Part shown: positions 44,379 through 62,678 of the stretch, piece by piece | How positions within the stretch are numbered: the first letter of the stretch is position 1 | Layout of the letters: each line of letters starts with the position of its first letter | Source: a phage | Sequence record: PZ445551.1 | Direction: 5' to 3' (one strand) | Length of the DNA stretch: 64,000 nt | Made by a program: the position numbers and the translations under genes | The notes under the pieces: generated by a model | What the model saw: the letters and a program-made list of their open reading frames with translations, nothing else | The model's database searches: none | What the model was told of the DNA's origin: nothing

Positions 44379-44596
44379 TATTTTGAAAATTTTTATTTTT
44401 ATAAAAAGGGGTGTGGGTTTCATGTACGGAAATTCACCCTCTGCACAGTATATCCAGAGTAAGTAGTATTCTATACCCTGTTAATAAAGTATTTAATTTG
44501 TTTGTTGGACTATGGTATCTGATCTTTAAAAGGCATACTATCTCTTAACTACTACTTATAACAGAACAGTAAAATCATTTTTATAAAAAGTACAAA

Positions 44597-49816: not shown

Positions 49817-49836
49817 ATCAATAAAGAGATAAGATT

Positions 49837-50196: not shown

Positions 50197-50211
50197 TTAA
50201 GAGGAAGAAAC

Positions 50212-50349
50212 ATGAACGCATCACAGCAGATCGAAAAATTCAACCGCAGCAAGGCGCGTAAAGATTGGAACGAAGAGATCACCAAAAAAGGCGACAAGCG
50301 GAACAAAACAAAGAGAGATCGCAGCACAAAAAGATACTGGAACGAATAA
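50212..50349 (+). CDS. Small basic protein (45 aa, below the ORF-track threshold)
   Basis: ATG 50212 after SD AAGAGGAAG; Lys/Arg-rich; followed by a terminator. Confidence 0.45.
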   Translation: MNASQQIEKFNRSKARKDWNEEITKKGDKRNKTKRDRSTKRYWNE

Positions 50350-50351
50350 CA

Positions 50352-50378
50352 AAAAGGGCGCAATAAGCGCCCTTTTAG
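50352..50378 (+). terminator. Rho-independent terminator (GGGCGC-aataa-GCGCCC + TTTT)
   Basis: Perfect stem followed by a T run. Confidence 0.6.
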
Positions 50379-50466
50379 CTTATATAGAGGCTTGTTACCC
50401 ATAGGCAATGGTAACGCCAGGATAAGCCTATAAACCACGTTAGACAGCTTTACAGGAGCTTTAAAA

Positions 50467-50649
50467 ATGAAATTAGACGAAATAAGCAAGGCACTAGCCC
50501 AGGGGCAAAGGTTATGCGCCCGATATCGTGATCAATATGGCTTCATAACTAGCGGCGTGATCCTGGGGATTGAAGGCAATAAGATTTTTATTGACACGTT
50601 GAAAAACGTTGTATATAGTGACAATATAATCTCAATAAAACATATATGA
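50467..50649 (+). CDS. Hypothetical small protein
   Basis: 60-aa ORF; SD AGGAG upstream. Confidence 0.5.
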   Translation: MKLDEISKALAQGQRLCARYRDQYGFITSGVILGIEGNKIFIDTLKNVVYSDNIISIKHI

Positions 50650-50657
50650 GGCAAGAA

Positions 50658-51059
50658 ATGAAAAAATTATTGATCGCTGGTTTAATCTCTTTTGGCATGG
50701 TTGGAACATCTAGCGCGGCGATATCCTCCACAGTAGCAGAATTAAGCGCCGTTGATGCAATGGAAAACGTCATGCTTATTAATAACGCGATCCCCGATGA
50801 AATCATGGAGGATTCACACATGATCGCTTATGGTGCTGTTACACAACTAACGGCAAAAATAGATAAATCTATTGTTAACGGCTTAAATGAAGATGTGCCA
50901 TGTGAAATTATTACCAGTGTGCTGACTACTCAAAATTTTACGCCGTGGTTAAAAAGTATTCAAAAAGTACACAGTACAGCCGCAGATCGTAGCAATGAAA
51001 AACTAGTGTCAGCACTTGCAACGTATACCCTAGCAAAATGCACCGAGATAAAAGATTGA
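50658..51059 (+). CDS. Secreted / periplasmic hypothetical protein
   Basis: Signal peptide MKKLLIAGLISFGMVGTSSA; start at ATG 50658. Confidence 0.55.
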   Translation: MKKLLIAGLISFGMVGTSSAAISSTVAELSAVDAMENVMLINNAIPDEIMEDSHMIAYGAVTQLTAKIDKSIVNGLNEDVPCEIITSVLTTQNFTPWLKSIQKVHSTAADRSNEKLVSALATYTLAKCTEIKD

Positions 51060-51084
51060 CAACATAGAAAGCACGTTATAAGAT
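51056..51084 (+). promoter_or_regulatory. sigma70-like promoter (TTGACA-N17-TAAGAT), no stem-loop
   Basis: Hexamers read directly upstream of ATG 51107. Confidence 0.45.
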
Positions 51085-51106
51085 ACACACAACAAAGGAG
51101 AACTAC

Positions 51107-51409
51107 ATGAACGGCATAGCTAAAACGTTTTTTCTTTTTTCTGGTGTAAATGATCCATCAATAAAAGTCGATAGTGTAAAAGAAAACAATACTATCACCG
51201 CTAAATTGTTTCAAGATGAAACAAATAACGTGCTAATCATTAATCTTAAAGAAGTAACTAAAGGTTATTATACTATTGCTTACCATGCGATTTATCATGC
51301 TGGTACTAGTGAGGAAGTGCAAACAAGCAACAACGAAAGCGCGGCGCTACCTGGTGATCTGGTGCTGGGCGTTATCAGTTTAATTGTCAATGATTTTTTT
51401 AAGGAGTAA
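51107..51409 (+). CDS. Hypothetical protein
   Basis: 100-aa ORF; SD AAAGGAG. Confidence 0.55.
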   Translation: MNGIAKTFFLFSGVNDPSIKVDSVKENNTITAKLFQDETNNVLIINLKEVTKGYYTIAYHAIYHAGTSEEVQTSNNESAALPGDLVLGVISLIVNDFFKE

Positions 51410-51738
51410 AACCATGCCCTATTTACATTTATTTTTCGGTATCTTATTGACAGGATCTTTTTTCTTCTGTATGCTTGTTTCTATTGTAAACCACGTTTTA
51501 AGACATTAAGGAAACAGCATGAAAATTATTCCCGTACAATATAGCGTAATAAATCCAGCATACGAGGAAGGAAGGAAAACAAGCATGGCTTTATGTTGTA
51601 TTGCTACTATAGCCATGTTGTTATATATTGTGTTTTAATAGGTTTTATAGTTGTACGCTTTAAGGGCTTGACAATTTTTTGTTATGCTTTAAACTATATC
51701 TTGAAAACGGCAAAGGCCGCAAACAAAAGGGTAAAATT

Positions 51739-52062
51739 ATGAAATCTGTGATCGGTGTTTATTTGGATAACTCTGATTTTTTCTATCATCGCGCTCGTTT
51801 CCTTGATGCGATTGAAATGATAGAATCAGGCTTTAAAGAGTATCGCCTTGCACATGATGACCTGGAAGCATTACAGGGCAATAGTGTTTTTACATTGCAA
51901 GCTAAAGCACTATGCAAAAGCCGGATCGACATTGCGAGCAAAAAGATAGAACGCGGCATGTCCTGGTTGCGCACCGCAGAAATCAACATGGGGCAATGGT
52001 ACGGCGAAAACTTAGAAAATAAACATACTTTTGTCAATGTAGAAAATATTGAAGATTATTGA
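51739..52062 (+). CDS. Hypothetical protein
   Basis: Start at ATG 51739 (MKSVIGV); TTGACA at 51668 upstream; 107 aa. Confidence 0.55.
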   Translation: MKSVIGVYLDNSDFFYHRARFLDAIEMIESGFKEYRLAHDDLEALQGNSVFTLQAKALCKSRIDIASKKIERGMSWLRTAEINMGQWYGENLENKHTFVNVENIEDY

Positions 52063-52125
52063 TTGACAGCACACCTAACGGGTAGTATATTGTATCTCAT
52101 AGAGCGGGGAAATGGTTTCCCCGCC
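52063..52125 (+). promoter_or_regulatory. sigma70-like promoter + 5' GC stem-loop cassette
   Basis: TTGACA at 52063; -10 TATATT; stem-loop GAGCGGGG-aaatggttt-CCCCGCC. Confidence 0.55.
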
Positions 52126-52144
52126 TTAAAAGAAGAGATAAGCT

Positions 52145-52429
52145 ATGAAGATCACAAAAGCACTTTCCAACTATGCAGCACGTCGCGGATTATGTTTAAC
52201 CGTTGAAAATTTAGGGAAAGAAGATTTTTTGTGCTTTTGGGAGCTTGAGAATGATAATGAGTGGATCTTCTCTTATTCTATCTGCGAAGATCAAAACGGT
52301 TGTTTATTAACCTGGCGCGGTAATATCTATTTACCGGAAGAAATCAAAGAAGAATTACCAGGCACGATCATGACTGAGAAACAGCTTAAGGAAGTGATCA
52401 ATTTTGTAGGGCAAAACATTAAAAAATAA
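52145..52429 (+). CDS. Hypothetical early protein
   Basis: 94-aa ORF. Confidence 0.55.
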   Translation: MKITKALSNYAARRGLCLTVENLGKEDFLCFWELENDNEWIFSYSICEDQNGCLLTWRGNIYLPEEIKEELPGTIMTEKQLKEVINFVGQNIKK

Positions 52430-52430
52430 T

Positions 52431-52489
52431 TTGACACTAGGCAAACAACGTAGTAAAGTTTATCACATAGGGCGGCAATAGTGCCGCTC
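52431..52489 (+). promoter_or_regulatory. sigma70-like promoter + 5' GC stem-loop cassette
   Basis: TTGACA at 52431; -10 TAAAGT; stem-loop GGGCGGC-aatagt-GCCGCTC. Confidence 0.55.
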
Positions 52490-52510
52490 ATAACAGAAGA
52501 GAAACAAATC

Positions 52511-52681
52511 ATGATCCCGACTATGTTTTATGTATCGCGCAAAGGTCACAATATTTTTTGGTCTGAAGATTTAAATGAAGCTATGACGTTTGCCCGTGAT
52601 CGTGTCGCTATCGGTGGCGTTAACATCACTGTAACCGATGAAAACGGCATTGAATACTATAACGGCGACGATGAAGAGTAA
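52511..52681 (+). CDS. Small hypothetical protein
   Basis: Start at ATG 52511 downstream of the stem-loop; 56 aa. Confidence 0.5.
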   Translation: MIPTMFYVSRKGHNIFWSEDLNEAMTFARDRVAIGGVNITVTDENGIEYYNGDDEE

Positions 52682-52688
52682 TCAACAA

Positions 52689-52706
52689 GGCGGGATTAAT
52701 CCCGCC
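52689..52706 (+). promoter_or_regulatory. GC stem-loop GGCGGGAT-ta-ATCCCGCC preceding a small ORF
   Basis: Perfect palindrome; no clear promoter hexamers upstream. Confidence 0.35.
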
Positions 52707-52725
52707 TGTATTAAAGGGTAATATA

Positions 52726-52863
52726 ATGAAAACTTTCAACGCAACAGCCTCGACAATTGGTTATATTATTACAGTGCAAGCCGTTGACCTGGTAGCGGCA
52801 GCAAACAAGATTAAAAAGATGATCCCAACAGGCAGCGAATTTTCCGTTTGGGAAGTAAAATAA
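52726..52863 (+). CDS. Small hypothetical protein (45 aa, below the ORF-track threshold)
   Basis: ATG 52726 after AAAGGGTAATATA; hand-translated. Confidence 0.4.
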   Translation: MKTFNATASTIGYIITVQAVDLVAAANKIKKMIPTGSEFSVWEVK

Positions 52864-52866
52864 ATC

Positions 52867-52924
52867 TTGACAATAGTTTATTACTTGATAGAATGTATTT
52901 CGTAGGGCGGCAATAGTGCCGCTC
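52867..52924 (+). promoter_or_regulatory. sigma70-like promoter + 5' GC stem-loop cassette
   Basis: TTGACA at 52867; -10 TAGAAT; stem-loop GGGCGGC-aatagt-GCCGCTC. Confidence 0.55.
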
Positions 52925-52945
52925 ACAACTAAAAGAGAAATCATC

Positions 52946-53140
52946 ATGGCGCTTAAAAAATTAACAAGCAATACTCGTTGGGATGAAATCGACGGGGAAG
53001 TATACATTTTCGCCCGTAAACCAGGTGATCAAAAATGGTCAAAGGCTTTTACTTGCCACCCTGCAACAATAGATCTAATAAAAAGTAAAGGTTTACGTGA
53101 AGCAGTAGCGAGAAGTTTACTGATCCCTTATAAAAAATAG
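52946..53140 (+). CDS. Small hypothetical protein
   Basis: Start at ATG 52946 (MALKKL); 64 aa. Confidence 0.5.
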   Translation: MALKKLTSNTRWDEIDGEVYIFARKPGDQKWSKAFTCHPATIDLIKSKGLREAVARSLLIPYKK

Positions 53141-53141
53141 T

Positions 53142-53203
53142 TTGACAATATGCTGTTATCTGGTAAAGTGTACGACATAGGGCGGGGCAATAAGGCAACG
53201 CCC
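53142..53203 (+). promoter_or_regulatory. sigma70-like promoter + 5' GC stem-loop cassette
   Basis: TTGACA at 53142; -10 TAAAGT; stem-loop GGGCGGGGC ... GCAACGCCC. Confidence 0.5.
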
Positions 53204-53221
53204 ATTAATGAGGGTAGAATC

Positions 53222-53326
53222 ATGTTAGAGAAAATTTTCACGGTTGTAGTAGTTGGCCTGGCGTTATCGGTTGGATTGGTTGCAACTATGGCTAACATGA
53301 TCCTATCTTCCCACGGTATTGGATAA
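53222..53326 (+). CDS. Small hydrophobic peptide (34 aa)
   Basis: ATG 53222 after GAGGGTAGAATC; one transmembrane-like segment; hand-translated. Confidence 0.35.
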   Translation: MLEKIFTVVVVGLALSVGLVATMANMILSSHGIG

Positions 53327-53336
53327 GGTGAATCAA

Positions 53337-53552
53337 ATGATCACGAATAAGACAGGTAAAACAGAATTTTTACGCGGCTTGCAAATAGGTAAACCTGAGA
53401 TCTGGCATTGCACTAAATCCGCGCATAATGAAATGAAAGATTTTACCGCTACTTTACAACGTGTTAAAATATCTATCACGCAGAAAAAAGCCTTGTTAGT
53501 AGTAGAAAACGAGATACCGCAAACCATTATTATTGTCGAGCGTACAGCATGA
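53337..53552 (+). CDS. Hypothetical small protein
   Basis: Start at ATG 53337 with SD AAGGTGA; 71 aa. Confidence 0.5.
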   Translation: MITNKTGKTEFLRGLQIGKPEIWHCTKSAHNEMKDFTATLQRVKISITQKKALLVVENEIPQTIIIVERTA

Positions 53553-53935
53553 AAACTGAAATCATTATTGAAATCATCAACGGTTATAAAGAAGCCTTTA
53601 TTTTTGCTGAATCAGCCAGGGATCATGAAGGCTATTTTATTGATAACTTAGACGATTATGATTTTTCAGATCAAGCCCATCAGCGGATCATTCATGACGT
53701 AGCGGCTTATTGTGATGCCAATGATGCTGCTATCTCTGAGGCAATGAGCGACGGCGCTACAGCAAACCAGATCGGGAATGATTTACATTTTACCCGTAAC
53801 GGTCACGGCGTAGGCTTTTGGGATCGCCCTGAAATATACACTACTAACACCGCCAACCGCCTAACAAATGCAGCTAAATTAATGCCATCGGTGCATGCTT
53901 ACATTGGTGAAGATAATTTGATTTATATTGAATAA
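53549..53935 (+). CDS. Hypothetical acidic protein
   Basis: 128-aa ORF, Asp/Glu-rich; 4-nt overlap with the upstream gene. Confidence 0.6.
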   Translation: MKTEIIIEIINGYKEAFIFAESARDHEGYFIDNLDDYDFSDQAHQRIIHDVAAYCDANDAAISEAMSDGATANQIGNDLHFTRNGHGVGFWDRPEIYTTNTANRLTNAAKLMPSVHAYIGEDNLIYIE

Positions 53936-53941
53936 AAAGTA

Positions 53942-54000
53942 TTGACACCGATCCCCCATATGGTATTATTTACCACGTAGGCGGGAAATGGTTTCCCGCC
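53942..54000 (+). promoter_or_regulatory. sigma70-like promoter + 5' GC stem-loop cassette
   Basis: TTGACA at 53942; -10 TATTAT; stem-loop GGCGGG-aaatggttt-CCCGCC. Confidence 0.55.
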
Positions 54001-54023
54001 AGGTAATCAAAAAGGTAAATACT

Positions 54024-54413
54024 ATGCGCAACCTGGTTTCTGTTTCTAACGTTGAAAAATTTCAATCCTTGCAGGGTATCGTTAACAACGTAGCGCCTTT
54101 TTTAGTCAATGGCTTGATTGCAAAGATGAAAAATAAACATCATGCGGCATGGTCTGCTTACTGCTTTGATAATGATGAAAAAGCGGCTGAAATGATGTTA
54201 GATATGCTGTTAAATAGTGTAGAAACATCTTTACCGGAAAACATCGCAGAAGAGATCACCTATCGTTATAATATGGCGATCACTTACCAGGAGGTTGCGC
54301 AATTTAATATGATGGATGATGACGAACAACAGGATCAGGAAATGTTTTGGGAGTATGCAGATCGTCAATCGGCTTTTGATGAAAAGTTAGCGATGTATTA
54401 TAACGAATATTAA
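54024..54413 (+). CDS. Hypothetical acidic protein (candidate DNA mimic)
   Basis: Start at ATG 54024; 129 aa; C-terminal MMDDDEQQDQEMFWEY. Confidence 0.55.
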   Translation: MRNLVSVSNVEKFQSLQGIVNNVAPFLVNGLIAKMKNKHHAAWSAYCFDNDEKAAEMMLDMLLNSVETSLPENIAEEITYRYNMAITYQEVAQFNMMDDDEQQDQEMFWEYADRQSAFDEKLAMYYNEY

Positions 54414-54423
54414 TACACGGTAA

Positions 54424-54455
54424 AAGAAAGGGGCGCACTAAGCGCCCTTTTTTGT
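54424..54455 (+). terminator. Rho-independent terminator (GGGCGC-actaa-GCGCCC + TTTTTT)
   Basis: Perfect stem with a T6 run. Confidence 0.7.
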
Positions 54456-54799
54456 ATTCTTTTTTCACGATGGAAGTAACACGTAAAGAATAAACGTAAA
54501 AGGTGGTGTAAAACAGCCTAAAACCGATTATAACCGCTTAAACAAGGTAGTAATGACTAATCACCTTGCCAGGATGAAAAAGCTGTTATAAAGCTATTTA
54601 GAGCGTTTAAAGCACATAGGAAATAATTTGCTTTTTATCTTGCCTTTTATCCTGCTTTTGATTATTATTATGGAACGGGCGGCACCTGGGGACAGGGGAA
54701 GGTAATCACCGGAAGATCCCGCTATATATTGATAGCTAATATCTATTAAACAACAAAACATCAAAGGAATAAACTATCAAATCTTTACAATTCTACCTA

Positions 54800-54859
54800 T
54801 TGACACAGGATCACCCTTATAATAAGATGTATCCAGTAGGGCGGGAAATGGTTTCCCGC
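54800..54859 (+). promoter_or_regulatory. sigma70-like promoter + 5' GC stem-loop cassette
   Basis: TTGACA at 54800; -10 TAAGAT; stem-loop GGGCGGG-aaatggttt-CCCGC. Confidence 0.55.
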
Positions 54860-54878
54860 TTGATATAGGAATCATACC

Positions 54879-55187: not shown

Positions 55188-55571
55188 ATGAGCAATATCA
55201 GCAACCTGGCGGCTACTGTAAACGGTAAAGATTTTAACGGCGCTGTAGATCGTGATCCTATGTGGTGCTTATCAGTGTTTAAAGGCGATCTGGTTGAAGT
55301 TAGAACAACCGAAGGGTATAGCGATGATTATAAATGCGAGATCCATTTACACAACTGGTACACGGGTAAAACTTATGCGCTGAATCATGCGTTTATCGGC
55401 AAGGTTGAATATAGAGAAATGATCGACGAAGAAACGGGGCAAGATTTTAGCGAGCATGTTTATATTCGTTCCGAGACATTAGCCGAACGTTTGATCGAGA
55501 AAATGAAAGCAAAAAATAAAATTAATTTATCTCATTGGATTGATATAACAAACGATCCAGCTTATCAGTAA
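55188..55571 (+). CDS. Hypothetical early protein
   Basis: 127-aa ORF; SD GAGGAATCACC. Confidence 0.6.
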   Translation: MSNISNLAATVNGKDFNGAVDRDPMWCLSVFKGDLVEVRTTEGYSDDYKCEIHLHNWYTGKTYALNHAFIGKVEYREMIDEETGQDFSEHVYIRSETLAERLIEKMKAKNKINLSHWIDITNDPAYQ

Positions 55572-55583
55572 ATAACATTTCAT

Positions 55584-55613
55584 ACCAGGGCGCACAAAGC
55601 GCCCTTTCTTTTT
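55584..55613 (+). terminator. Rho-independent terminator (AGGGCGC-acaaa-GCGCCCT + TTCTTTTT)
   Basis: Perfect stem with T-tract right after the 55188-55571 stop. Confidence 0.7.
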
Positions 55614-55817
55614 ACCTAAATAAAGATGATAGCTTTTACCTATCAAAAACGTTCACCGAAAAAAGTGAATAGATCGCGGTATCGAGCTAATCAAGGAGCA
55701 GATGAACAACCATACCATGAAGATCATAAGGCGCTTACAACGTGTTTTAGACCGCTTATTTTTAATTTCTCAATGTAACTATCTGGCAAAAACAGCCTTT
55801 TTCTTGTCTTTCCTCTT

Positions 55818-55893
55818 AAATGATAATCATTCTTATTTATAGCTGATTATTTATGCAATAAACTGAATAATGCAATAATGATAATCATTCTTA
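55818..55893. promoter_or_regulatory. Two Fur-box-like sites (AATGATAATCATTCTTA)
   Basis: Two copies, each matching most of the E. coli Fur consensus GATAATGATAATCATTATC. Confidence 0.45.
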
Positions 55894-56250
55894 ACTTATG
55901 ACCATCTAACCTATAAAATAATAAGTTATCTAACTAAATTAAAACTAATTATCTCACCTTTATTTATAACTTACTGTTACTATCTCATTGATAACCTTAT
56001 ATTAAACAACAATAACCAATATAAATCATTACTAAGCTAAATATAATCTATCTAACCTTTAAAACTATAACTATAATCTATCGAATTGTTGCACAAAGTA
56101 ACTATTAAATTGTTAGTAACATTACTAAATAATTAATATCCTATCTATTTATGATCTAATCTTTATCTTCCTATCTATTACCTAAATAATCATTTCATAC
56201 AGTAATCATTTCATACAATAATTATAACAAGAAATATAATTCGCAAGCGT

Positions 56251-56430
56251 ATCATTAGCAGCCTATGCCGGACACATAGGCGGCTAATAATAACGCAACT
56301 ACACACCCCACATAATAACCATCACCGATAGTTATTATTTGTGCTTATGTAGCTTGCAACAATTGCAAGCGCAACAATATACATGGTATATTGTATCCCT
56401 TACATTGTTGCGGTGCGTTATTATTAGCTA
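56251..56430. repeat. Large imperfect inverted repeat with nested palindromes (CCTATG/CATAGG; CTTGCAA-caa-TTGCAAG; GCTAATAATAACGCAAC / GTTGCG..GTTATTATTAGC)
   Basis: Inverted-repeat arms read directly in an AT-rich non-coding region; could form a cruciform or hairpin. Confidence 0.5.
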
Positions 56431-56756
56431 ATGTTTAGAACATTGGCTATAATATAAGCTAAGTAATAAGCTATGCAATAATAAACATGGTGAATAATGA
56501 CATTGATGATCATAATGCGCCACCTTCCAGGGGGCGCTATGTGAACACAAAGAAATCTTTCTTGTCAAGAAAAAATATTGCCATTATTGCGCAAAATTAT
56601 TTATATCTGAATAGATGATTTTTCATACTATTGCCCCATATAACATACCTCATTTGTTGAGCATAGTTATAGCCTATTTGTTGAGCCTACTTTCTTAAAA
56701 GCGCAATAAATCAGAATTATCTTGATTTTTAGTCTGTTTTATAGTATAGAAAGTAT

Positions 56757-56778
56757 GCAAATGATAATCATTATCAGC
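56757..56778. promoter_or_regulatory. Fur-box-like site containing AATGATAATCATTATC (16/16 match to consensus positions 4-19)
   Basis: Direct match to the canonical Fur box core. Confidence 0.5.
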
Positions 56779-56940
56779 TATCTTCCACGGGTAGCACTAT
56801 TTCACGCCAGATCATTTCATTTGGCAAGGTGTATATAGATGTTTAGACTTGCCAAGCCATTGATTTACTTAGAATTTATCTGTTTTGTTGTGAGTAGAGC
56901 CTTTCTTGCTCAGAAAATAATCAAAAGTCTTATAAGTCAT

Positions 56941-56976
56941 TGAATGATAATGCAAATGATAATTATTCTCATTGAT
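56941..56976. promoter_or_regulatory. Fur-box-like repeats (TGAATGATAATGCAAATGATAATTATTCTCATTGAT)
   Basis: Tandem GATAAT-type hexamers. Confidence 0.4.
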
Positions 56977-57332
56977 ATTTGAGGGGGACGGTCGGCAGAA
57001 ATCGGGGGGCGCTGAAAATCGCGTTAAGCACCTCTCGCAAGCGAGCAGTATTTTGCGGCAAGTTATTGATATTATTGGCTTTACGCTTATGAAAAGGGGG
57101 TGTGTCGAAATAAATCGGGTATACCGGAAAATTTTTGTGGCATAGATATTTATTTGTCTATATTATGTACAAAAGGGTGTGTTAAAAATATTAGGTATAT
57201 ATAGAATAATTGATAGGGAAATCCTATACTAATTCCTCCATTAATGATGTTTCTATGTTACTGTTCTTGTAACAGATGAAAAGACGCTGTATGATGTGTG
57301 GCATGAAACGTAAATTTATAAAGGAGTCTGAT

Positions 57333-57692
57333 ATGTGTGTTCCTCTTAGCAGTCCACTGCTGTTAGAATTTTACAAAGCATGGATGGAAGATCATTCCTC
57401 AATGCATCGTGAGAATGTTGGTTTGTGTAATTGCCTTATGGATTACCTGGCAACCACTATGTCAAAGAAAAAACCTACGGAAGAAGATATAGAATATTTC
57501 AAGATGGTTCGTAGCAAAACGCTGGAAGAGATGAAACTGCAATTCACGTGTGCTGGGCTATCCTCCTTTCTACCCTTTAATTATGATCTTCTGTGTTATG
57601 AAGATGAAGGTAAGACACATTCTTGCCATACCAACCCAAAGAGATTGCAGTGGGTGAAAGATCGTATTGCCGATTCATGCAAGGGTGTGTAG
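57333..57692 (+). CDS. Cys/His-rich small protein, paralog family member 1
   Basis: Start at ATG 57333 with SD AAGGAG; motifs LLEFYKAW, GLCNCL, QFTCAGL, PFN, RLQWVKDRI shared with three paralogs. Confidence 0.6.
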   Translation: MCVPLSSPLLLEFYKAWMEDHSSMHRENVGLCNCLMDYLATTMSKKKPTEEDIEYFKMVRSKTLEEMKLQFTCAGLSSFLPFNYDLLCYEDEGKTHSCHTNPKRLQWVKDRIADSCKGV

Positions 57693-57693
57693 A

Positions 57694-57849
57694 ATGTTGG
57701 AATTGATTGGGATAGTTTGGTTAATGATAAAAGCAGGTTTCGTCGGTTTCGGACTTCTTATAATTTTGTGTATGTTCCTTAGTGCAATACAGGCATTCTT
57801 TTATCTGCTAGGTAGAATACTTAAGTTGGGAGGTGATAATGAAAAGTAA
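57694..57849 (+). CDS. Small membrane protein (51 aa)
   Basis: Hydrophobic helix IGIVWLMIKAGFVGFGLLIILCMFL; longest ORF from 57667. Confidence 0.45.
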   Translation: MLELIGIVWLMIKAGFVGFGLLIILCMFLSAIQAFFYLLGRILKLGGDNEK

Positions 57850-58207
57850 TATTCCGTTGAGTAGTGCAGCTTTAATACGATTCTATAAAGCATGGATTGC
57901 CAACCATCCTGCAATGAATCGCACAACGAGTGGCTTATGTGGTTGTCTGGTAGATTATGTAGATGATTTTGTTGGTGAGATAACTAGAGAAGAAGATAAA
58001 AGATGGCGTGATCGTTTGTTGGATAGTTTGAAATACGAAATGAGGAAACAATTTACATGTGCAGGACTGGACTACAATCTTCCGTTCAATGCAGATTGCA
58101 TGGATTACCTTTCAGAGTGTATAGACTTGGCGTGTCATACCAACACGTTACGTCTTCAATGGGTGAAAGACAGAATCGAAGATGCAAATAATGCTTGCAT
58201 TGAATAG
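57839..58207 (+). CDS. Cys/His-rich small protein, paralog family member 2
   Basis: SD GGGAGGTGATA; motifs LIRFYKAW, GLCGCL, QFTCAGL, PFN, RLQWVKDRI. Confidence 0.6.
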   Translation: MKSNIPLSSAALIRFYKAWIANHPAMNRTTSGLCGCLVDYVDDFVGEITREEDKRWRDRLLDSLKYEMRKQFTCAGLDYNLPFNADCMDYLSECIDLACHTNTLRLQWVKDRIEDANNACIE

Positions 58208-58277
58208 AAATGTCTGTACACTGTGTTCCATAAGATATACAATATCGCGCATAACAAACTACTAATGAGAGGTGTAA

Positions 58278-58736
58278 ATGAAAACTGTATCTTTGTATCT
58301 TGCTAACACGGAGCGTGTACATAATCTTGTAAAAGAATGCGGTGTGAGTGTTCAATTTAATACAGGAAAGCCTTCCGTGGTGACAGGCAGTGAGATATGT
58401 GTTATTGATTTCCTCAATGAATATTTTCGTGGAAAACCTATTGCTCGTCACTTCATTCAAGAAATGCGAGATGTACTACAGGCTTATGAATTCTACCCTG
58501 AAGTTTGTGAACGCTATGAAACGATTCTTAGCTCTGTAGAAGATCCAGATACTAGTGAAACAGGTGCTTCCCACTTGCTGTGGATGTTGAATGAAATTCA
58601 GGATGGGTGTAATGGTATGTCTGAAACCAAACGCCATCGTTGGCTAGGCTATATTCAGGGTGTTATGGTTATGAAAAACCTTATTACAGTGAATGATGAA
58701 CGTAACGCTACACGCCCAGTCTTTAATGGAGCATAA
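58278..58736 (+). CDS. Hypothetical protein
   Basis: 152-aa ORF; SD GAGAGGTG. Confidence 0.6.
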   Translation: MKTVSLYLANTERVHNLVKECGVSVQFNTGKPSVVTGSEICVIDFLNEYFRGKPIARHFIQEMRDVLQAYEFYPEVCERYETILSSVEDPDTSETGASHLLWMLNEIQDGCNGMSETKRHRWLGYIQGVMVMKNLITVNDERNATRPVFNGA

Positions 58737-58737
58737 C

Positions 58738-58953
58738 ATGAAAAGCATTAGGGTGTGTATCGAAAATAATTGTGGTTATCTGGGGTTGACACACGTCGCT
58801 TTCCCTCTTATATTGGATGCCGATATAGCTTACAGCGGAGTTGCTTATGTGTCATTCAAAACAATGAGCCAAGTACCTGGCTGGAATTGGGAAGTGGTTG
58901 ATGTTGTTGAAGGAGAAGACTATGTTTTCCTTCCACACGAATATACAGTTTAA
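58738..58953 (+). CDS. Hypothetical small protein
   Basis: Start at ATG 58738 with SD GGAGCATAAC; 71 aa. Confidence 0.5.
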   Translation: MKSIRVCIENNCGYLGLTHVAFPLILDADIAYSGVAYVSFKTMSQVPGWNWEVVDVVEGEDYVFLPHEYTV

Positions 58954-58967
58954 AAGAGGAAAAGAAG

Positions 58968-59144
58968 ATGGATAAACAAACTACTATGTACTTAGTAACA
59001 AAGAATACCCCAGGCTGGAGCCAATGCAGCACTGTTCCTTATAAGATCTGTGCAACATTAGAACTAGCACAACGTGCAGAAGCAGAAGTGAATGCCATGC
59101 AATACAGCTATGGTGAAATCATTCCTTTTACTCTTGAACAATAA
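58968..59144 (+). CDS. Small hypothetical protein (58 aa, below the ORF-track threshold)
   Basis: ATG 58968 after AAGAGGAAAAGAAG; hand-translated. Confidence 0.45.
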   Translation: MDKQTTMYLVTKNTPGWSQCSTVPYKICATLELAQRAEAEVNAMQYSYGEIIPFTLEQ

Positions 59145-59155
59145 GGATTTGTGTA

Positions 59156-59608
59156 ATGTTTGAAATTGGTAAAGTGTATCGTTTTAAGAACCCATCTTAT
59201 ATCCGTAAGTTTGCTAACGTGTCTGAGTGCAATAGCAGGATTGCTTCTTTCTTAGGTGATTCTTATTTTCGTGTATTAGATGTGGATGATTGGTATGGTG
59301 TCACTGCTTTGCAATCCTTGGCAGGAGAACAAGAAATTATCGCTCAAAATGAAGGAGACTTTCTTCAGTGTTACACGTTGCTTGCAAAAAGTGAGTTTGA
59401 GTATTTTGTAGAAGTCTTAGAGGAAGCACCAAAAAGTAAACACGAAGAGAAATACCTGCTTGTAGTGGATGGAGTTCCGATCATGGAAACCATCTCCCGT
59501 GAGGAAGTTGAAAAAGAGGCGAAACGTTACAAACTGGATCGTACACAGAGTGTAGTTGAAATCTATTCTCTTGTTGGTGTTGCAGATATTAGTGTGAACA
59601 TCGTATAA
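59156..59608 (+). CDS. Hypothetical protein
   Basis: 150-aa ORF. Confidence 0.6.
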   Translation: MFEIGKVYRFKNPSYIRKFANVSECNSRIASFLGDSYFRVLDVDDWYGVTALQSLAGEQEIIAQNEGDFLQCYTLLAKSEFEYFVEVLEEAPKSKHEEKYLLVVDGVPIMETISREEVEKEAKRYKLDRTQSVVEIYSLVGVADISVNIV

Positions 59609-59611
59609 TAT

Positions 59612-59824
59612 ATGTGTAATGACAGATACATTCTCCGTGTATCTGATAAGTCTCCTATGTTTGACTGGCGGGGCTGGTGGCTACTAGCTCCGATGCAAGG
59701 TCTGACAGACGTGGAAAAGGAGGCTTATGTGTATACAAAAGAAGAGATAGAAGATAGCCTTTATTTGACAGATAACATTAAGAATGGTATCTTTGAGTGT
59801 AAATTGAAAGGAGAGGAAGAATGA
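59612..59824 (+). CDS. Hypothetical small protein
   Basis: 70-aa ORF. Confidence 0.5.
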   Translation: MCNDRYILRVSDKSPMFDWRGWWLLAPMQGLTDVEKEAYVYTKEEIEDSLYLTDNIKNGIFECKLKGEEE

Positions 59825-60120
59825 CTATTACAGAAAAACTGCGCTGTATTGCAAAGCAAAGTGGAGAAGGTTTATGGTTTCCTATTGAGGAAATTATTCA
59901 GGACTGTTATGATCAGGCTAAGACTGGCAAATACTCCAAAGCATTTAAACCGTCTGTTTTCGGTTTGGATGACTATCCAAAAAATGAACAAGCAAAGAAA
60001 CGACAAGTTGATTTGATTGATCTTGCTATGGAAGCACTACGAGAGCATGGGCTTAGTAAGGTGTATGCTTTAAACACCAAAGAGGGCTTTGTAGATTCAG
60101 TGATCGTAGACTGGTATTAA
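59821..60120 (+). CDS. Hypothetical protein
   Basis: 99-aa ORF; 4-nt overlap with the upstream gene. Confidence 0.55.
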   Translation: MTITEKLRCIAKQSGEGLWFPIEEIIQDCYDQAKTGKYSKAFKPSVFGLDDYPKNEQAKKRQVDLIDLAMEALREHGLSKVYALNTKEGFVDSVIVDWY

Positions 60121-60129
60121 GGAGAAGCC

Positions 60130-60498
60130 ATGCAAGAAAATAATAAAGTGTGTAACATGAAAAGCAGCCCCTATTTGCTACAATTTTATGAGTGGTGGTT
60201 AGAACAAGAAGATACAAACTTTAGCAAAAAGCATTATGGTCTTTGCACGTGTCTTGTAGACTTCTTATACAATATTGCTTGGATAAAAGATGTTGAGAAT
60301 GTAGCAAACCTCCAGTCCTCTGTACGAGAGGAAATGAAGGAACAGTTTAAGAAAGCAGGTTTGAACCATTTACACCCATTTAATACAGATTTCTCACATT
60401 ACTTTACGGAAACAGAGTTAGGCATTGCACACCTTAACAAAGAACGTGTACAATGGGTGATTGATCGTATTCGTGATATGGAGGAATATAATGGTTAA
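60130..60498 (+). CDS. Cys/His-rich small protein, paralog family member 3
   Basis: Motifs LLQFYEWW, GLCTCL, QFKKAGL, PFN, RVQWVIDRI. Confidence 0.6.
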   Translation: MQENNKVCNMKSSPYLLQFYEWWLEQEDTNFSKKHYGLCTCLVDFLYNIAWIKDVENVANLQSSVREEMKEQFKKAGLNHLHPFNTDFSHYFTETELGIAHLNKERVQWVIDRIRDMEEYNG

Positions 60499-60700
60499 GT
60501 TTAAAACTTTCTGTGCAATCTCTGTTTGTCTTATTCTTGCATACGTGTTATTCTCTAGTATCATTCGTTTAGGTGAGTATATGGCAAGAGAAGCTCGTGA
60601 AAGTGAAGCTAAAAAAGAACAGTGCATCGTGTTAAAGCACCAAAGGGATGCTGAAAAATTTCTTGAACAGGATTGTGGGCGCTATGTGAATTATAATTAG
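60491..60700 (+). CDS. Small membrane-anchored protein
   Basis: Start at ATG 60491 with SD GGAGGAATATA; N-terminal transmembrane helix. Confidence 0.5.
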   Translation: MVKFKTFCAISVCLILAYVLFSSIIRLGEYMAREARESEAKKEQCIVLKHQRDAEKFLEQDCGRYVNYN

Positions 60701-60709
60701 GAGGGAAGT

Positions 60710-60958
60710 ATGTTAGATATTTTTACCTTTGATCGTGTTGGTACACCGATTACCGAAGAAGAACGTACCAAAATTGAACAAGAATTGGATGCTTTACGTG
60801 CGTCTCTTACAGACACAGCCTCACTACAACGTGAAGCTGCACATCTCACAGAGATCACTGGTATTCAGTGGAGCACGGAGTGGGTTGTAATTACAATTGA
60901 AGCGGATATTTGGGGACATGAAGAGACGCTACGTACCGGAGTAGTAACGGTTTGGTGA
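60710..60958 (+). CDS. Hypothetical small protein
   Basis: 82-aa ORF; SD GGAGGGAAG. Confidence 0.55.
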   Translation: MLDIFTFDRVGTPITEEERTKIEQELDALRASLTDTASLQREAAHLTEITGIQWSTEWVVITIEADIWGHEETLRTGVVTVW

Positions 60959-61004
60959 TAGATGTTATTCTTTTGTGTTTCTTGATATATAAATAGGAGG
61001 GTTT

Positions 61005-61229
61005 ATGGTAAAACGTCTGGAATGGGATGCGTGTACTGCTCACGCTTGTCACTGTAATATTGTGGAAGATCCTAATGGAGAAATGGTGTATTATGAGGAT
61101 TACGAAGCATTGCATAATGCTGTGATCGCTTTACTGGATGATATTAGCTCACGCTATCCAGGACAACAGTTTACGTGTCCACATATCCAACTATTAGCCA
61201 AACTTACGGAGTATCCAAGTGTTTCATAA
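61005..61229 (+). CDS. Hypothetical small protein
   Basis: 74-aa ORF; SD AGGAGGG. Confidence 0.55.
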   Translation: MVKRLEWDACTAHACHCNIVEDPNGEMVYYEDYEALHNAVIALLDDISSRYPGQQFTCPHIQLLAKLTEYPSVS

Positions 61230-61230
61230 T

Positions 61231-61398
61231 ATGGGTGTCCCTGAACAACTCCTCTTTATTGTAGGATTAGTGGGCTTATTAGCGGCTGGAGCCAAAGCCG
61301 CTTCTCACACGCATCACATAATGTTAAGATTTCTGTTCCTACTCCCTTCTATCCTTGTATTATTAGTCATATTGATTGATAACATTTTTCACAATTAA
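61231..61398 (+). CDS. Small membrane peptide (55 aa), weak RBS
   Basis: Hydrophobic ORF filling the gap between neighbouring genes; hand-translated; no clear SD. Confidence 0.3.
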   Translation: MGVPEQLLFIVGLVGLLAAGAKAASHTHHIMLRFLFLLPSILVLLVILIDNIFHN

Positions 61399-61407
61399 GG
61401 AGAGGTT

Positions 61408-61992
61408 ATGAGTAAAATTATACCAAGCAGTTATGAATTATTGCAGTTTTATGTATATTACTTAGACTGGGTTAATAGATCGAATGTTAAAGACAATGCG
61501 ATGTTTAGTAAAAACATCTGTTTAACAGAAAGTATCTTCCGTTATTGGCACACAGGCAGAAAGTGTACACACAGTGAAGCTATGCGTATTGTAGGTGAAT
61601 ACCTGGAGCAATTGCAAAAAGCAGAACTTCCTGTCCTTCACCCATTCAACGAATCTAAAGAAGAATTAGAACAAGAGTGTAGAGAAGGTAAGTGCCATTT
61701 AAATGAAAAACGTATCGAATGGGTGAGGCAACGTTTAGCCGATGCAGGAAAGACTCCTAGTGACTCTGACTATACGTGGTATGATGTAGAGGGTTTAGTT
61801 CAAGGTTTTGAGGCTTGTGCTATAGATAATACCAACTTTGCCAAAGTTTTATGTGAGGCTTATGATCTGGCAGATAAAATCCGAAATCACGGATGGAAAC
61901 AAGAGCATAAAGAATCATATGAACGCCTTGACAAGATTTTCAAACAGATCTATTCTAACCACAAGAAGATGTTCCAAATGGAGGATGTGTAA
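61408..61992 (+). CDS. Cys/His-rich protein, paralog family member 4 (extended C-terminus)
   Basis: Motifs LLQFYVYYL, PFN, RIEWVRQRL; SD AAGGAGAGG. Confidence 0.6.
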   Translation: MSKIIPSSYELLQFYVYYLDWVNRSNVKDNAMFSKNICLTESIFRYWHTGRKCTHSEAMRIVGEYLEQLQKAELPVLHPFNESKEELEQECREGKCHLNEKRIEWVRQRLADAGKTPSDSDYTWYDVEGLVQGFEACAIDNTNFAKVLCEAYDLADKIRNHGWKQEHKESYERLDKIFKQIYSNHKKMFQMEDV

Positions 61993-62678
61993 TGAAAGAG
62001 ATTATGTTTGAAGGGCATTGTTACGAAGTTCCAGACAATGCAAATTTCATGGCTCGTGATATCACTGGAGATGTGTTCTGGTTTGAAGATGAACCTATGT
62101 TTTCTTCGAACAAACACTGGTTTTCACAACAATCTTCTTCGGAAAATATGACTTTTGGCTACGTAGAGTCTAAAGTACGTTGCAAAGCAGCTTCTTCTTT
62201 GGTAAAAATTTCCCAAGATGACCAAGAAAATACTCAAGATGTTGTTAGTGCGCTACTGAAGTACATTGCAGAACTTGAGAAGAAAATTAAAGAAGCAGAA
62301 ACTAAGGTGAAAGCACGATCAGCAATCATCGAAACTATGTCTGAACGTATTTTAGAACTAGAAGATTTGTGTGGAGAGGCTTATCAAGTGGTTGGTGCGC
62401 TGGCGTGTGAAGCACAAATGTTTGAAACTTCAGAACAAGTTTCGCATATGTTAGATAATTTGAGTGAATGTAAAATGATTCATGATGATGTATTGCCATT
62501 TTGTTGCAATGTTAACAAAACAGAGCAAACACAAGATTCAGAAACAGTTTATGTTCCGCTAATGTGTGTTCCAGATCATCTAAAAGGTGTATTCTCTTGT
62601 AAATGGTCGCTGTTGAGCGTTACTAATTGTGGTGAAAACTATTCTGCCAACATTGAATTGCTAAAACACGTTAAATAA
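61992..62678 (+). CDS. Hypothetical protein (Cys-rich)
   Basis: 228-aa ORF. Confidence 0.6.
   Translation: MKEIMFEGHCYEVPDNANFMARDITGDVFWFEDEPMFSSNKHWFSQQSSSENMTFGYVESKVRCKAASSLVKISQDDQENTQDVVSALLKYIAELEKKIKEAETKVKARSAIIETMSERILELEDLCGEAYQVVGALACEAQMFETSEQVSHMLDNLSECKMIHDDVLPFCCNVNKTEQTQDSETVYVPLMCVPDHLKGVFSCKWSLLSVTNCGENYSANIELLKHVK

What the first reader, a model, noticed from the sequence alone, without database searches (positions are those of the whole stretch)
57097..57205. Repeated AAAAGGG(G)TGTG motif (three copies: 44403, 57097, 57171) ahead of plus-strand gene blocks
The same about 12-nt G-rich motif, followed by an AT-rich stretch containing GGTATA or TATATA, occurs twice just upstream of the 57.3 kb gene block and once just after the NADAR gene at 44.4 kb. 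It does not match sigma70 hexamers and may be a promoter for a phage-specific sigma or RNA polymerase, or a regulator binding site.
Basis: seen in the sequence. Interest (0 to 1): 0.4.

Follow-up and report, generated by a model that had tools for sequence, protein, structure and literature searches.

The report
Conserved repeats beside phage terminal repeat
Two of the three motif copies are a conserved tandem repeat just inside the left end of a phi92-like E. coli phage genome, probably a protein-binding control site for the first early genes, and the third copy is an unrelated hairpin, so this is not a new promoter class.

Summary
The window is Escherichia phage VivaForever, a phi92-like Justusliebigvirus.

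**The motif is real.** AAAAG(3-5)TGTG occurs at 44404, 57092 and 57171, all on the + strand. There is no other copy in the 146-kb genome, where about 0.13 are expected by chance.

**Copies 2 and 3 are paralogues.**
- They are the cores of two tandem modules of about 40 bp (local alignment P=0.001).
- Mapping onto phi92's annotated 343-bp left terminal repeat puts them 66 and 145 bp inside the unique DNA. That is 409 and 488 bp from the physical left end, upstream of the first early gene.
- Position and orientation are kept in 14 genomes of Justusliebigvirus, Phapecoctavirus and a Klebsiella relative.
- Copy 3's block is the best-conserved non-coding stretch between the two genera.

**Copy 1 is something else.** It is the 5' arm of a 14-bp hairpin 26 nt after the NADAR stop codon, in a convergent ORF-free region. 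Given copies 2 and 3, a third match by chance has P of about 0.12.

**A phage-specific sigma or RNA polymerase promoter class is not supported.** The motif sits before no other operon.

**Mechanism.** My preferred reading is operator or promoter-auxiliary sites for the left-end early operon (confidence about 0.4). The main rival is accessory sites of the terminal-repeat packaging signal (about 0.3). No transcription-start or binding data exist for this phage group.

**Side observations are more striking than the motif.** The repeat-boundary block is copied in small islands in 413 of 5,426 E. coli genomes. Fur-box-like sites cluster in the same ORF-free regions.

The parts
57092..57104 (+). Motif copy 2, core AAAAGGGGGTGTG
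   Evidence: Exact pattern match. The G-run length varies from 4 to 6 among relatives.
57087..57125 (+). Module 2: TTATG-AAAAGGGGG-TGTGTCGAAATAAATCG-GGTATACC, where GGTATACC is an 8-bp palindrome
   Evidence: Paralogous to module 3 (P=0.001). The core GGGTGTGTCGAAATAATC is kept in Phapecoctavirus. It has the same composite architecture as the terminal-repeat boundary block.
57171..57181 (+). Motif copy 3, core AAAAGGGTGTG
   Evidence: Exact pattern match.
57166..57231 (+). Module 3, the conserved block GGGTGTGTTAAAAATATTAGGTATATATAGAATAATTGATAGG, followed by the inverted repeat ATAGG-gaaat-CCTAT (57213-57227)
   Evidence: Cross-genus BLAST hit 57143-57235 at about 76%, 92% over 57173-57221. 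There are no indels and GGTATATAT and TAATTGATAG are almost invariant in 14 genomes.
44404..44415 (+). Motif copy 1, AAAAGGGGTGTG. It is the junction of the repeat ATTTTTATAAAAAG with a hairpin arm
   Evidence: Repeat family D6 recurs at 44577 without GGGTGTG.
44407..44442 (+). A 14-bp stem-loop 26 nt after the NADAR stop codon. Copy 1's G-run and TGTGGG form its 5' arm. No U-tract follows
   Evidence: Free energy -16.4 kcal/mol, z=-3.3. In phage muut a U-to-C change turns a G.U pair into G-C.
56684..57026 (.). Inferred direct terminal repeat. In the virion it is present at both ends, and 56684 is the physical left end
   Evidence: phi92's annotated left repeat (1-343) aligns to 56684-57026. 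UAB_1 is annotated with 343 bp and BME3 has 342 bp (PMC12210895).
57000..57046 (+). Boundary block ...ATCGGGGGGCGCTGAAAATCGCGTTA|AGCACCTCTCGCAA, which spans the inner repeat boundary
   Evidence: TCGCGTTAAGCA is invariant in 14 genomes. The 74-bp query 56973-57046, which contains this block, is 100% identical in most Justusliebigvirus records. It is copied in E. coli islands.
57267..57295 (+). Sigma-70-type promoter TTGTAA-17-TATGAT directly before the first gene
   Evidence: The hexamers are kept in both genera while the spacer differs completely.
57333..57692 (+). First gene of the left-end early block (119 aa, family phrog_2510, function unknown)
   Evidence: GenBank coding sequence. PHROG hit, no Pfam hit.

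Best explanation
Copies 2 and 3 are the cores of two tandem, paralogous modules of about 40 bp. The modules lie in the leader between the left direct terminal repeat and the first early operon of a phi92-like phage.

They most likely work as DNA sites recognised by a protein that controls transcription entering that operon. In other words they are an operator or promoter-auxiliary element, not a self-sufficient promoter class.

In module 3 the motif occupies about -46 to -36 of a weak sigma-70-like arrangement:
- an A-tract and G-run, then GTGTTA or TTAAAA, a 17-bp spacer, then TAGAAT or AATAAT;
- an operator-like inverted repeat ATAGG-N5-CCTAT at the predicted start.

Module 2 is a more degenerate duplicate.

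Copy 1 is unrelated. It is the 5' arm of a stem-loop at the 3' end of the NADAR operon.

Shown: location, paralogy, conservation and uniqueness in the genome. Inferred: that a protein binds, which protein it is, and the effect on transcription.
For: **Location**
- Homology to phi92's annotated repeat puts copies 2 and 3 at 66 and 145 bp past the repeat boundary, upstream of and co-oriented with the first gene.

**Conservation**
- Both modules keep their place and orientation in 14 genomes of two genera plus a Klebsiella phage.
- Module 3 is the best-conserved non-coding block between the genera.
- Conservation runs through the would-be spacer (GGTATATAT) and through TAATTGATAGG. The neighbouring true promoter TTGTAA-17-TATGAT keeps only its hexamers. 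This pattern suggests an extended protein contact rather than a plain promoter.
- There are no indels from TGT to GATAGG in 13 of 14 genomes. The only indels between VivaForever and phi92 over 563 bp lie in the two A/G runs.

**Promoter-like features**
- RATAAT, with the key A and T positions, is kept in 13 of 14 genomes, 17 bp after TYAAAA.
- In phiWec181, GTGTCA-17-TAGAAT is the top promoter-matrix hit of the region.
- The stem of ATAGG-N5-CCTAT is kept while its loop varies (GAAAT, GAATA, AATCC).
- Two canonical promoters of this phage also carry a G-run directly before the -35 hexamer, at 45570 and 58786.

**Against the packaging rival**
- E. coli islands that copy the repeat-boundary block do not copy modules 2 and 3. 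This suggests the modules serve a phage-specific function rather than the shared one.
Against: - No transcription-start, binding or expression data exist for this phage group.
- The sigma-70 matrix scores of the module frames are unremarkable in VivaForever, below 7.5. Hundreds of sites per 64 kb score as well, and the real early promoters score 13-16.
- Module 2 has no acceptable -10 hexamer in Justusliebigvirus.
- No DNA-binding protein was recognised among the first ten left-end genes.
- Module 2 resembles the repeat-boundary block, which favours a packaging role.
- The G-run plus TGTGT is lost from one of the two modules in some lineages: module 2 in phiWec181-like phages and module 3 in KP2025.
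Confidence: 0.4

Rival explanations
1. Copies 2 and 3 are accessory recognition repeats of the packaging and terminus-forming signal. They would be terminase-binding sites next to the inner boundary of the terminal repeat, comparable to the R sites of lambda cosB.
For: - They lie 66 and 145 bp from the inferred cut site, as direct repeats, and occur nowhere else in the genome, as expected for a packaging signal.
- The composite pattern G-run, 4-10 nt, GAAA(W0-4)ATCG occurs only twice in 146 kb: in the boundary block (57004) and in module 2 (57096). Both are followed by (C/G)GTWWA.
- Local alignment of the boundary block against module 2 gives P=0.018 in VivaForever and P=0.011 in KP2025.
- Four of the 14 plus-strand runs of five or more G in the genome fall within 56530-57100.
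Against: - The similarity between boundary block and module is not significant in Phapecoctavirus, nor for module 3.
- The E. coli islands share only the boundary block of about 46-75 bp and not the TGTGT modules.
- The most invariant part of module 3 (GGTATATAT...TAATTGATAGG) has no counterpart at the boundary.
- The spacing between modules differs between the genera, about 78 against about 59 bp.
Confidence: 0.3
2. One reading: the motif plus a downstream TATA-like element is a promoter class recognised by a phage-encoded sigma factor or RNA polymerase, used at middle or late times ahead of gene blocks.
For: - The motif sits where a -35 element would be, relative to TATA-rich sequence in modules 2 and 3.
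- The left-end block has no near-consensus sigma-70 promoter directly upstream.
Against: - There are only three copies in 146 kb and none before any other operon.
- Copy 1 is downstream of a gene, inside a hairpin.
- No RNA polymerase or sigma gene is annotated.
- A conserved sigma-70-type promoter lies between module 3 and the first gene.
Confidence: 0.05
3. All three copies, including copy 1, bind one and the same factor, which links the two large ORF-free regions (44.4-45.05 kb and 55.6-57.3 kb).
For: - Copy 1 matches copy 2 over 17 of 18 nt, TTAT(G)AAAA(A)GGGG(G)TGTG.
- Both ORF-free regions also hold clusters of Fur-box-like palindromes, so they share other features.
Against: - The similarity stops at TGTG.
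- Copy 1's AAAAG belongs to another repeat that recurs without the G-run/TGTG.
- Copy 1's G-run/TGTGGG is paired in a stable hairpin that copies 2 and 3 lack.
- A chance third match has P of about 0.12.
- Copy 1's region has no detectable match in Phapecoctavirus records, whereas copies 2 and 3 are conserved there.
Confidence: 0.1
4. Copies 2 and 3 are a tandem duplication with no function of their own, carried along in a conserved leader.
For: - G-run length drifts freely.
- One of the two modules has lost the motif in some lineages.
Against: - Module 3 is 92% identical between genera whose flanking non-coding DNA is 65-79% identical or cannot be aligned.
- At least one module per genome keeps the G-run and TG.
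Confidence: 0.1

Closest known systems
Terminase-binding repeats next to a cut site (lambda cosB R3/R2/R1; the hexamer arrays of the P1 pac site)
   Same: Short direct repeats occur only beside the DNA-end-forming site, within about 200 bp of the cut. One repeat resembles the sequence at the cut itself.
   Different: No binding or packaging data exist. This phage has T7-type short terminal repeats, not cohesive ends. The repeats lie outside the terminal repeat. The islands that share the cut-site block lack them.
Tandem host-polymerase promoters at the left end of T7 (A1, A2, A3, about 500-750 bp from the end)
   Same: The elements are tandem, co-oriented and 400-500 bp from the physical left end, just past a short terminal repeat and before the first early genes.
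   Different: The T7 A promoters are strong near-consensus sigma-70 promoters. These modules have poor -35 hexamers, and module 2 has a poor -10 as well. Their conservation also extends through the spacer.
UP element plus -35 region of sigma-70 promoters (proximal subsite consensus AAAAAARNR at -46 to -38)
   Same: With AATAAT as the -10 hexamer, copy 3 (AAAAGGGTG) falls at -46 to -38. Two canonical promoters of this phage also have an A-run and/or a G-run directly before TTGAC(A/G).
   Different: The A-tract shifts by 1-2 nt between close relatives because the G-run length varies. No start site has been mapped.
Small sets of special promoters at a phage's left end (the three hairpin promoters of N4 for its virion RNA polymerase; T4 MotA-box middle promoters)
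   Same: A non-sigma-70 motif in the -35 position, present in few copies near one genome end.
   Different: No virion or phage RNA polymerase, sigma factor or MotA/AsiA-like gene is annotated. The motif forms no hairpin at copies 2 and 3. T4 middle promoters number in the dozens.

Membership tests
Sigma-70 promoter | A -10 hexamer with A at position 2 and T at position 6 | tested here: met
   Module 3 has AATAAT or GATAAT in 13 of 14 genomes (KP2025 has TTTAAT), and TAGAAT is an alternative in Justusliebigvirus. Module 2 has only AAAATT in Justusliebigvirus and TATTTT in Schickermooser.
Sigma-70 promoter | A -35 hexamer resembling TTGACA, 16-18 bp upstream of the -10 | tested here: inconclusive
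   TTAAAA or TCAAAA, or GTGTTA or GTGTCA, lie at 17 bp but match only 3-4 of 6 positions. The matrix score in VivaForever is below 7.5, against 13-16 for the phage's real early promoters.
Sigma-70 promoter | Between relatives, conservation is confined to the hexamers and the spacer is free to vary | tested here: not met
   The spacer GGTATATAT and the downstream TAATTGATAGG are as conserved as the hexamers. The neighbouring TTGTAA-17-TATGAT promoter does show hexamer-only conservation.
Sigma-70 promoter | A mapped transcription start | not testable with these tools
   No transcription-start or RNA-seq study of this subfamily was found.
Phage-specific promoter class (own sigma factor or RNA polymerase) | The motif recurs upstream of many genes or operons of one temporal class | tested here: not met
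   There are three copies in 146 kb and none before another operon. Relaxed searches find nothing coherent.
Phage-specific promoter class (own sigma factor or RNA polymerase) | The phage encodes an RNA polymerase, a sigma factor or a sigma appropriator | tested here: inconclusive
   None is annotated among the 280 coding sequences, but most genes are hypothetical and were not searched individually.
Packaging-signal accessory repeats (cosB or pac type) | Repeats lie next to the end-forming cut and are unique in the genome | tested here: met
   They lie 66 and 145 bp from the inferred repeat boundary and have no other copy. Module 2 shares its architecture with the boundary block.
Packaging-signal accessory repeats (cosB or pac type) | Bound by the small terminase subunit and required for cutting or packaging | not testable with these tools
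   This needs gel-shift and plasmid-packaging assays.
Packaging-signal accessory repeats (cosB or pac type) | Travels together with the cut-site block in other elements that use the same signal | tested here: not met
   The E. coli islands share only 46-75 bp around the boundary and carry no TGTGT modules. It is itself only an inference that the islands use this block for packaging.
Intrinsic terminator (copy 1) | A G+C-rich hairpin | tested here: met
   A 14-bp stem at 44407-44442, -16.4 kcal/mol, z=-3.3.
Intrinsic terminator (copy 1) | A U-tract directly after the stem | tested here: not met
   The stem is followed by TGCACAGTATATCC, and the terminator scan does not list it.

The most novel reading that the evidence does not exclude
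Modules 2 and 3, together with the boundary block 56973-57046, form a multi-repeat packaging signal of T7-type terminal-repeat packaging in Stephanstirmvirinae. The core of that signal has been captured by small integrase-bearing islands in about 8% of E. coli genomes. Those islands would then be a previously unrecognised kind of satellite of phi92-like myoviruses.
Probability: 0.2. Interest if true: 0.65.

Novelty: new member of a known kind. Interest (0 to 1): 0.27.

Why it matters
The motif matters mainly for what it locates. It marks the physical left end of the genome and a conserved control region that current annotation hides under spurious small ORFs. That region holds the terminal-repeat boundary, the two repeat modules and the first early promoter.

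If the modules are operators, they are a handle on how phi92-like phages time their first genes. These phages are widely used as therapy candidates. If the modules belong to the packaging signal, they help define the minimal sequence needed to package DNA into these capsids. They would also help explain why E. coli islands carry a copy of the neighbouring block.

As a claimed new promoter class the finding does not hold.

Tried and rejected
- **Related loci through the first gene's protein.** The scan of viral contigs found no relatives.
- **Exact module-3 pattern in viral contigs.** Only 3 loci came back.
- **A 15-mer boundary anchor in metagenome contigs.** The anchor was too short, so most of the 120 hits were chance. 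Eight contigs of one island family and one Phapecoctavirus contig were real.
- **Known RNA families.** Rfam at gathering thresholds on the whole window, and at permissive E-values on both ORF-free regions, gave no credible family. No tRNA genes were found in the window.
- **RNA structure at copies 2 and 3.** Folding z-scores of -0.5 to -1.2 are not significant.
- **Coding.** GenBank annotates a 34-codon ORF at 57100-57204 that starts at the GTG inside copy 2. The 1-nt length differences in the A/G runs of phi92 break its frame, so it is not conserved as coding sequence.
- **Extra GGGTGTGT sites.** The sites at 57683 and 58751 looked like a cluster, but they are absent from the orthologous phi92 and UAB_1 left ends, so I dropped them.
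- **Minus-strand promoters through the motif (TTAACA, TCGACA).** No -10 hexamer sits at a usable, conserved distance (reading).
- **Host factor sites.** By-eye comparison with my recalled consensus sequences for CRP, IHF, Fis, DnaA, sigma-54, the MotA box and the marbox gave no convincing match. This rests on memory, not on a formal test.
- **Replication origin.** GC skew follows gene orientation only and shows no switch at 57 kb.
- **DNA-binding genes.** Pfam and PHROGs searches of the first ten left-end genes identified no DNA-binding protein.
- **Literature.** Searches found no promoter, transcription-start or satellite data for this subfamily.

Full report
**Identity of the window.** Window 55500-59500 is 100% identical to Escherichia phage VivaForever (PP925843.1, 146,096 bp), on the reverse strand. 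It is 95-97% identical to many phi92-like Justusliebigvirus genomes. Record position equals 144201 minus window position. I fetched the whole genome and searched it in full.

- 44404-44415
- 57092-57104
- 57171-57181

Shuffles expect 0.18 matches. The other 82 kb of the genome hold no copy on either strand, even with AAAG(3-6)TGTG. A first-order Markov model expects 0.13 matches per genome. So the set is more than chance, but the three copies are not independent and are not of one kind.

**Copies 2 and 3 are paralogues.** They align over about 40 nt as TTATG(TAC)AAAAG(n)TGTGT-YR-AAA(W)..-GGTATA. The score is 33 against a null of 16.3 +/- 3.0, P=0.001 (also family D16).

**Where copies 2 and 3 sit.**
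- phi92 (NC_023693) is annotated with a left direct terminal repeat at 1-343. UAB_1 has the same annotation, and BME3 has 342 bp (PMC12210895).
- phi92 1-565 aligns to window 56684-57246 with 552 identities. This places the physical left end at 56684 and the inner repeat boundary at 57026|57027.
- Copies 2 and 3 therefore lie 66 and 145 bp inside the unique DNA, 409 and 488 bp from the left end.
- They are upstream of the first gene at 57333-57692.
- The only two indels in that alignment are single bases in the A/G runs of copies 2 and 3.
- The 1.7-kb 'ORF-free' stretch 55606-57332 is thus the right-end unique DNA, the terminal repeat and the left-end leader. The small ORFs GenBank places there, including one that starts at the GTG inside copy 2, are not conserved as coding sequence.

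**Conservation.**
- A 441-bp query around the copies finds 112 phage records. All Phapecoctavirus records hit only 57143-57235, which is module 3, at the same distance from the left end, about 438-529.
- Against a Phapecoctavirus-like contig, module 3 is 92% identical. The other alignable non-coding blocks are 68-79% identical.
- In a 14-genome alignment (6 Justusliebigvirus, 7 Phapecoctavirus-like, 1 Klebsiella phage), module 3 reads G(3-5)TGT(G)T-Y-AAAAATA-W-Y-M-GGTATATAT-R-G-R-ATAATTGATAGG. It has no indel in 13 of the 14 genomes.
- Module 2 keeps GGGTGTGTCGAAATAATC in most Phapecoctavirus genomes.
- The G-run varies from 3 to 6 bases among close relatives.
- phiWec181-like phages have lost TGTGT from module 2, and KP2025 has lost the G-run from module 3. 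At least one module per genome keeps it.

**Copy 1 is different.**
- It lies 26 nt after the stop codon of the NADAR/YbiA-like gene.
- In curated phi92 the next gene is on the opposite strand, about 800 bp away, so the region is convergent.
- Its AAAAG is the end of a repeat, ATTTTTATAAAAAG, that recurs at 44577 without the G-run.
- Its GGGGTGTGGGTTTC is the 5' arm of a 14-bp hairpin at 44407-44442, -16.4 kcal/mol, z=-3.3. Copies 2 and 3 have no such structure.
- In phage muut a U-to-C change converts a G.U pair of this stem into G-C.
- No U-tract follows, so it is not a canonical terminator.
- The similarity to copies 2 and 3 stops at TGTG.
- The region has no detectable match in Phapecoctavirus records.
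- Given copies 2 and 3, one more chance match in the genome has P of about 0.12.

**Testing the promoter-class idea.**
- The phage's recognisable early promoters are near-consensus sigma-70 promoters, TTGACA-16/17-TAnnnT, with A-rich upstream DNA. Twelve of them are followed after 7 nt by ATAGGGCGG..., which forms a hairpin that covaries between copies.
- Nothing like the motif precedes any other operon.
- Taking all one-mismatch GGGTGTG sites that have a -10-like hexamer at the module-3 distance yields 37 scattered hits, mostly inside genes.
- No RNA polymerase or sigma gene is annotated.
- Between module 3 and the first gene lies TTGTAA-17-TATGAT (57267-57295). Its hexamers are kept in both genera while its spacer differs completely, which is the footprint expected of a real sigma-70 promoter.
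- Module 3 shows the opposite pattern, with conservation straight through any spacer.
- I therefore reject a phage-specific promoter class. Modules 2 and 3 are best treated as extended protein-recognition sites.

**Which function?** Two readings remain.

*(a) Regulatory, my preferred reading.*
- The modules are co-oriented with and upstream of the first operon.
- Module 3 contains weak sigma-70-like frames. TTAAAA/TCAAAA-17-AATAAT/GATAAT has the key -10 positions kept in 13 of 14 genomes. GTGTYA-17-TAGAAT is the top matrix hit in phiWec181.
- With AATAAT as the -10, the motif falls at -46 to -36. This is where the proximal UP subsite lies, according to my recollection of the literature.
- Two canonical promoters here also have G-runs abutting the -35 hexamer.
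- An inverted repeat ATAGG-N5-CCTAT with a conserved stem and a variable loop sits at the predicted start.
- Against this reading: matrix scores are unremarkable in VivaForever, module 2 lacks a usable -10 in Justusliebigvirus, and no regulator gene was recognised.

*(b) Packaging-related.*
- The modules flank the repeat boundary and are unique in the genome.
- Module 2 shares a composite architecture with the boundary block: G-run, 4-10 nt, GAAA(W0-4)ATCG, then (C/G)GTWWA. That pattern occurs only at these two places in 146 kb.
- The boundary block aligns to module 2 with P=0.018 in VivaForever and P=0.011 in KP2025.
- Four of the 14 plus-strand runs of five or more G lie within 56530-57100.
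- Against this reading: the similarity is not significant in Phapecoctavirus or for module 3. The E. coli islands that copy the boundary block do not copy the modules.

I put (a) at about 0.4 and (b) at about 0.3. Neither can be settled without experiments.

**Things found on the way.**
- *Boundary block.* The block spanning the repeat boundary, ATCGGGGGGCGCTGAAAATCGCGTTA|AGCACCTCTCGCAA, is invariant at TCGCGTTAAGCA in all 14 genomes, and the 74-bp query containing it is 100% identical in most Justusliebigvirus records.
- *Shared cut-site pattern.* Both boundaries share GTTR|AGC: TTGTTG|AGCC on the left and GCGTTA|AGCA on the right. The left boundary lies in the second copy of a 24-nt tandem repeat (D5).
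- *Islands in E. coli.* 413 of 5,426 complete genomes carry a stretch of about 46-48 bp at least 80% identical to the boundary block, 411 of them at 90% or more. In the two genomes inspected it sits inside a small integrase-bearing island. One is an island of about 8.4 kb at the thiM riboswitch. The other is an island of about 13 kb at tRNA-Thr with genes resembling Dit, tape-measure protein, capsid protein and a replication initiator. This block is the only DNA the islands share with the phage. That is what one would expect of satellites borrowing a helper's packaging signal. No paper linking satellites to phi92 was found. I did not test this further.
- *Fur-box-like palindromes.* These have the core AATGAKAATCATT. 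Fourteen sites lie within 4 mismatches of the 19-bp consensus, against 1.9 in shuffles. Eleven of the 14 are in the two ORF-free regions, at 44815-44910 and 55874-56970. The one at 56952 overlaps TTGAAT-18-TATTCT. Across all 14 genomes it keeps the core AATGAKAAT-N-ATTC-N-CAT, followed by an invariant TGATATTTG.

**Verdict.** The motif is real. Two of its copies mark a conserved element beside the genome terminus whose mechanism is unknown. The third copy is a look-alike. The proposed phage-specific promoter class is not supported. For the finding as stated, interest is low to moderate.

Noticed in passing
window 56973-57046; loci L140 (9001-9074), L141 (10001-10046), L022/L036/L042/L067/L073/L089/L094/L118: The block spanning the inner terminal-repeat boundary has near-identical copies in E. 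coli. 413 of 5,426 complete genomes carry a stretch of about 46-48 bp at least 80% identical, 411 of them at 90% or more (44/46 in the best cases). In the two genomes inspected it sits inside a small integrase-bearing chromosomal island, at the thiM riboswitch or at tRNA-Thr. It is the only DNA the islands share with the phage. These islands are candidate satellites that borrow a Justusliebigvirus packaging signal. No literature on this was found.
   Followed up: partly
window 44815-44910 and 55816-56970: Clusters of Fur-box-like palindromes (core AATGAKAATCATT). Fourteen sites lie within 4 mismatches of GATAATGATAATCATTATC in the genome, against 1.9 in shuffles, and 11 of them are in the two ORF-free regions. 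The box at 56952 lies inside the terminal repeat and overlaps a rightward TTGAAT-18-TATTCT. Its core AATGAKAAT-N-ATTC-N-CAT is kept in all 14 related genomes. This may mean iron- or Fur-responsive control, or Fur titration.
   Followed up: partly
window 45830-54870 (+ strand; e.g. 45830, 46186, 48458, 48876, 49194, 52063, 52867, 53942) and 23209 (- strand): Twelve near-consensus sigma-70 early promoters, each followed 7 nt after the -10 by (A/G)TAGGGCGG.... This sequence forms a hairpin at the 5' end of the transcript, and the stem sequences covary between copies (GGCGGGAAA/TTTCCCGCC, GCGGCA/TGCCGC, GCGGAGGA/TCCTCCGC).
   Followed up: partly
window 56645-56692 and 57020-57032: Both inferred terminal-repeat boundaries share GTTR|AGC (TTGTTG|AGCC and GCGTTA|AGCA). 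The left boundary lies in the second copy of a 24-nt tandem repeat, ATAxCxxATTTGTTGAGCxTAxTT. An island copy keeps GCGTTG|AGC.
   Followed up: partly
window 44577-44797: Three tandem repeats of about 70 bp (TTATTTAAAGTTTTT ... TTTTGAAAATGAAAAGTTCAA) lie in the convergent ORF-free region after the NADAR gene. Four Fur-like boxes and a GC-rich segment follow directly. The arrangement looks iteron-like and could be an origin or a regulatory array.
   Followed up: no
window 56530, 56983, 57004, 57096: Four of the genome's 14 plus-strand runs of five or more G fall within 570 bp around the terminal repeat, where about 0.05 would be expected. GGGGGCGCT occurs at both 56530 and 57005.
   Followed up: partly
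window 55606-57332: GenBank annotates 8 ORFs of 30-46 codons in this 1.7-kb stretch, which is really the right-end unique DNA, the terminal repeat and the leader. The curated phi92, Paula and Schickermooser records call none there. The ORF at 57100-57204 is broken by 1-nt indels in phi92. These calls are probably spurious.
   Followed up: partly
window 56260-56430: A conserved block, 79-80% identical to Phapecoctavirus, contains a perfect 15-nt inverted repeat (56283-56297 / 56414-56428) and smaller hairpins. It also holds CACACCCC, the reverse complement of GGGGTGTG, at 56302. This last feature is kept in Paula but not in Phapecoctavirus.
   Followed up: no
loci L019 and L096 (Phapecoctavirus-like), module 2 position: In phiWec181-like phages the G-run of module 2 pairs with a C-run about 17 nt downstream. 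Between two relatives a G-to-A change in one arm is matched by a C-to-T change in the other (GGGGG...CCCCC against GAGGG...CCCTC).
   Followed up: no
window 57333-62000: Four of the first ten left-end genes (57333, 57839, 60130, 61408) belong to one family of unknown function (phrog_2510). None of the ten has a Pfam match above threshold.
   Followed up: partly
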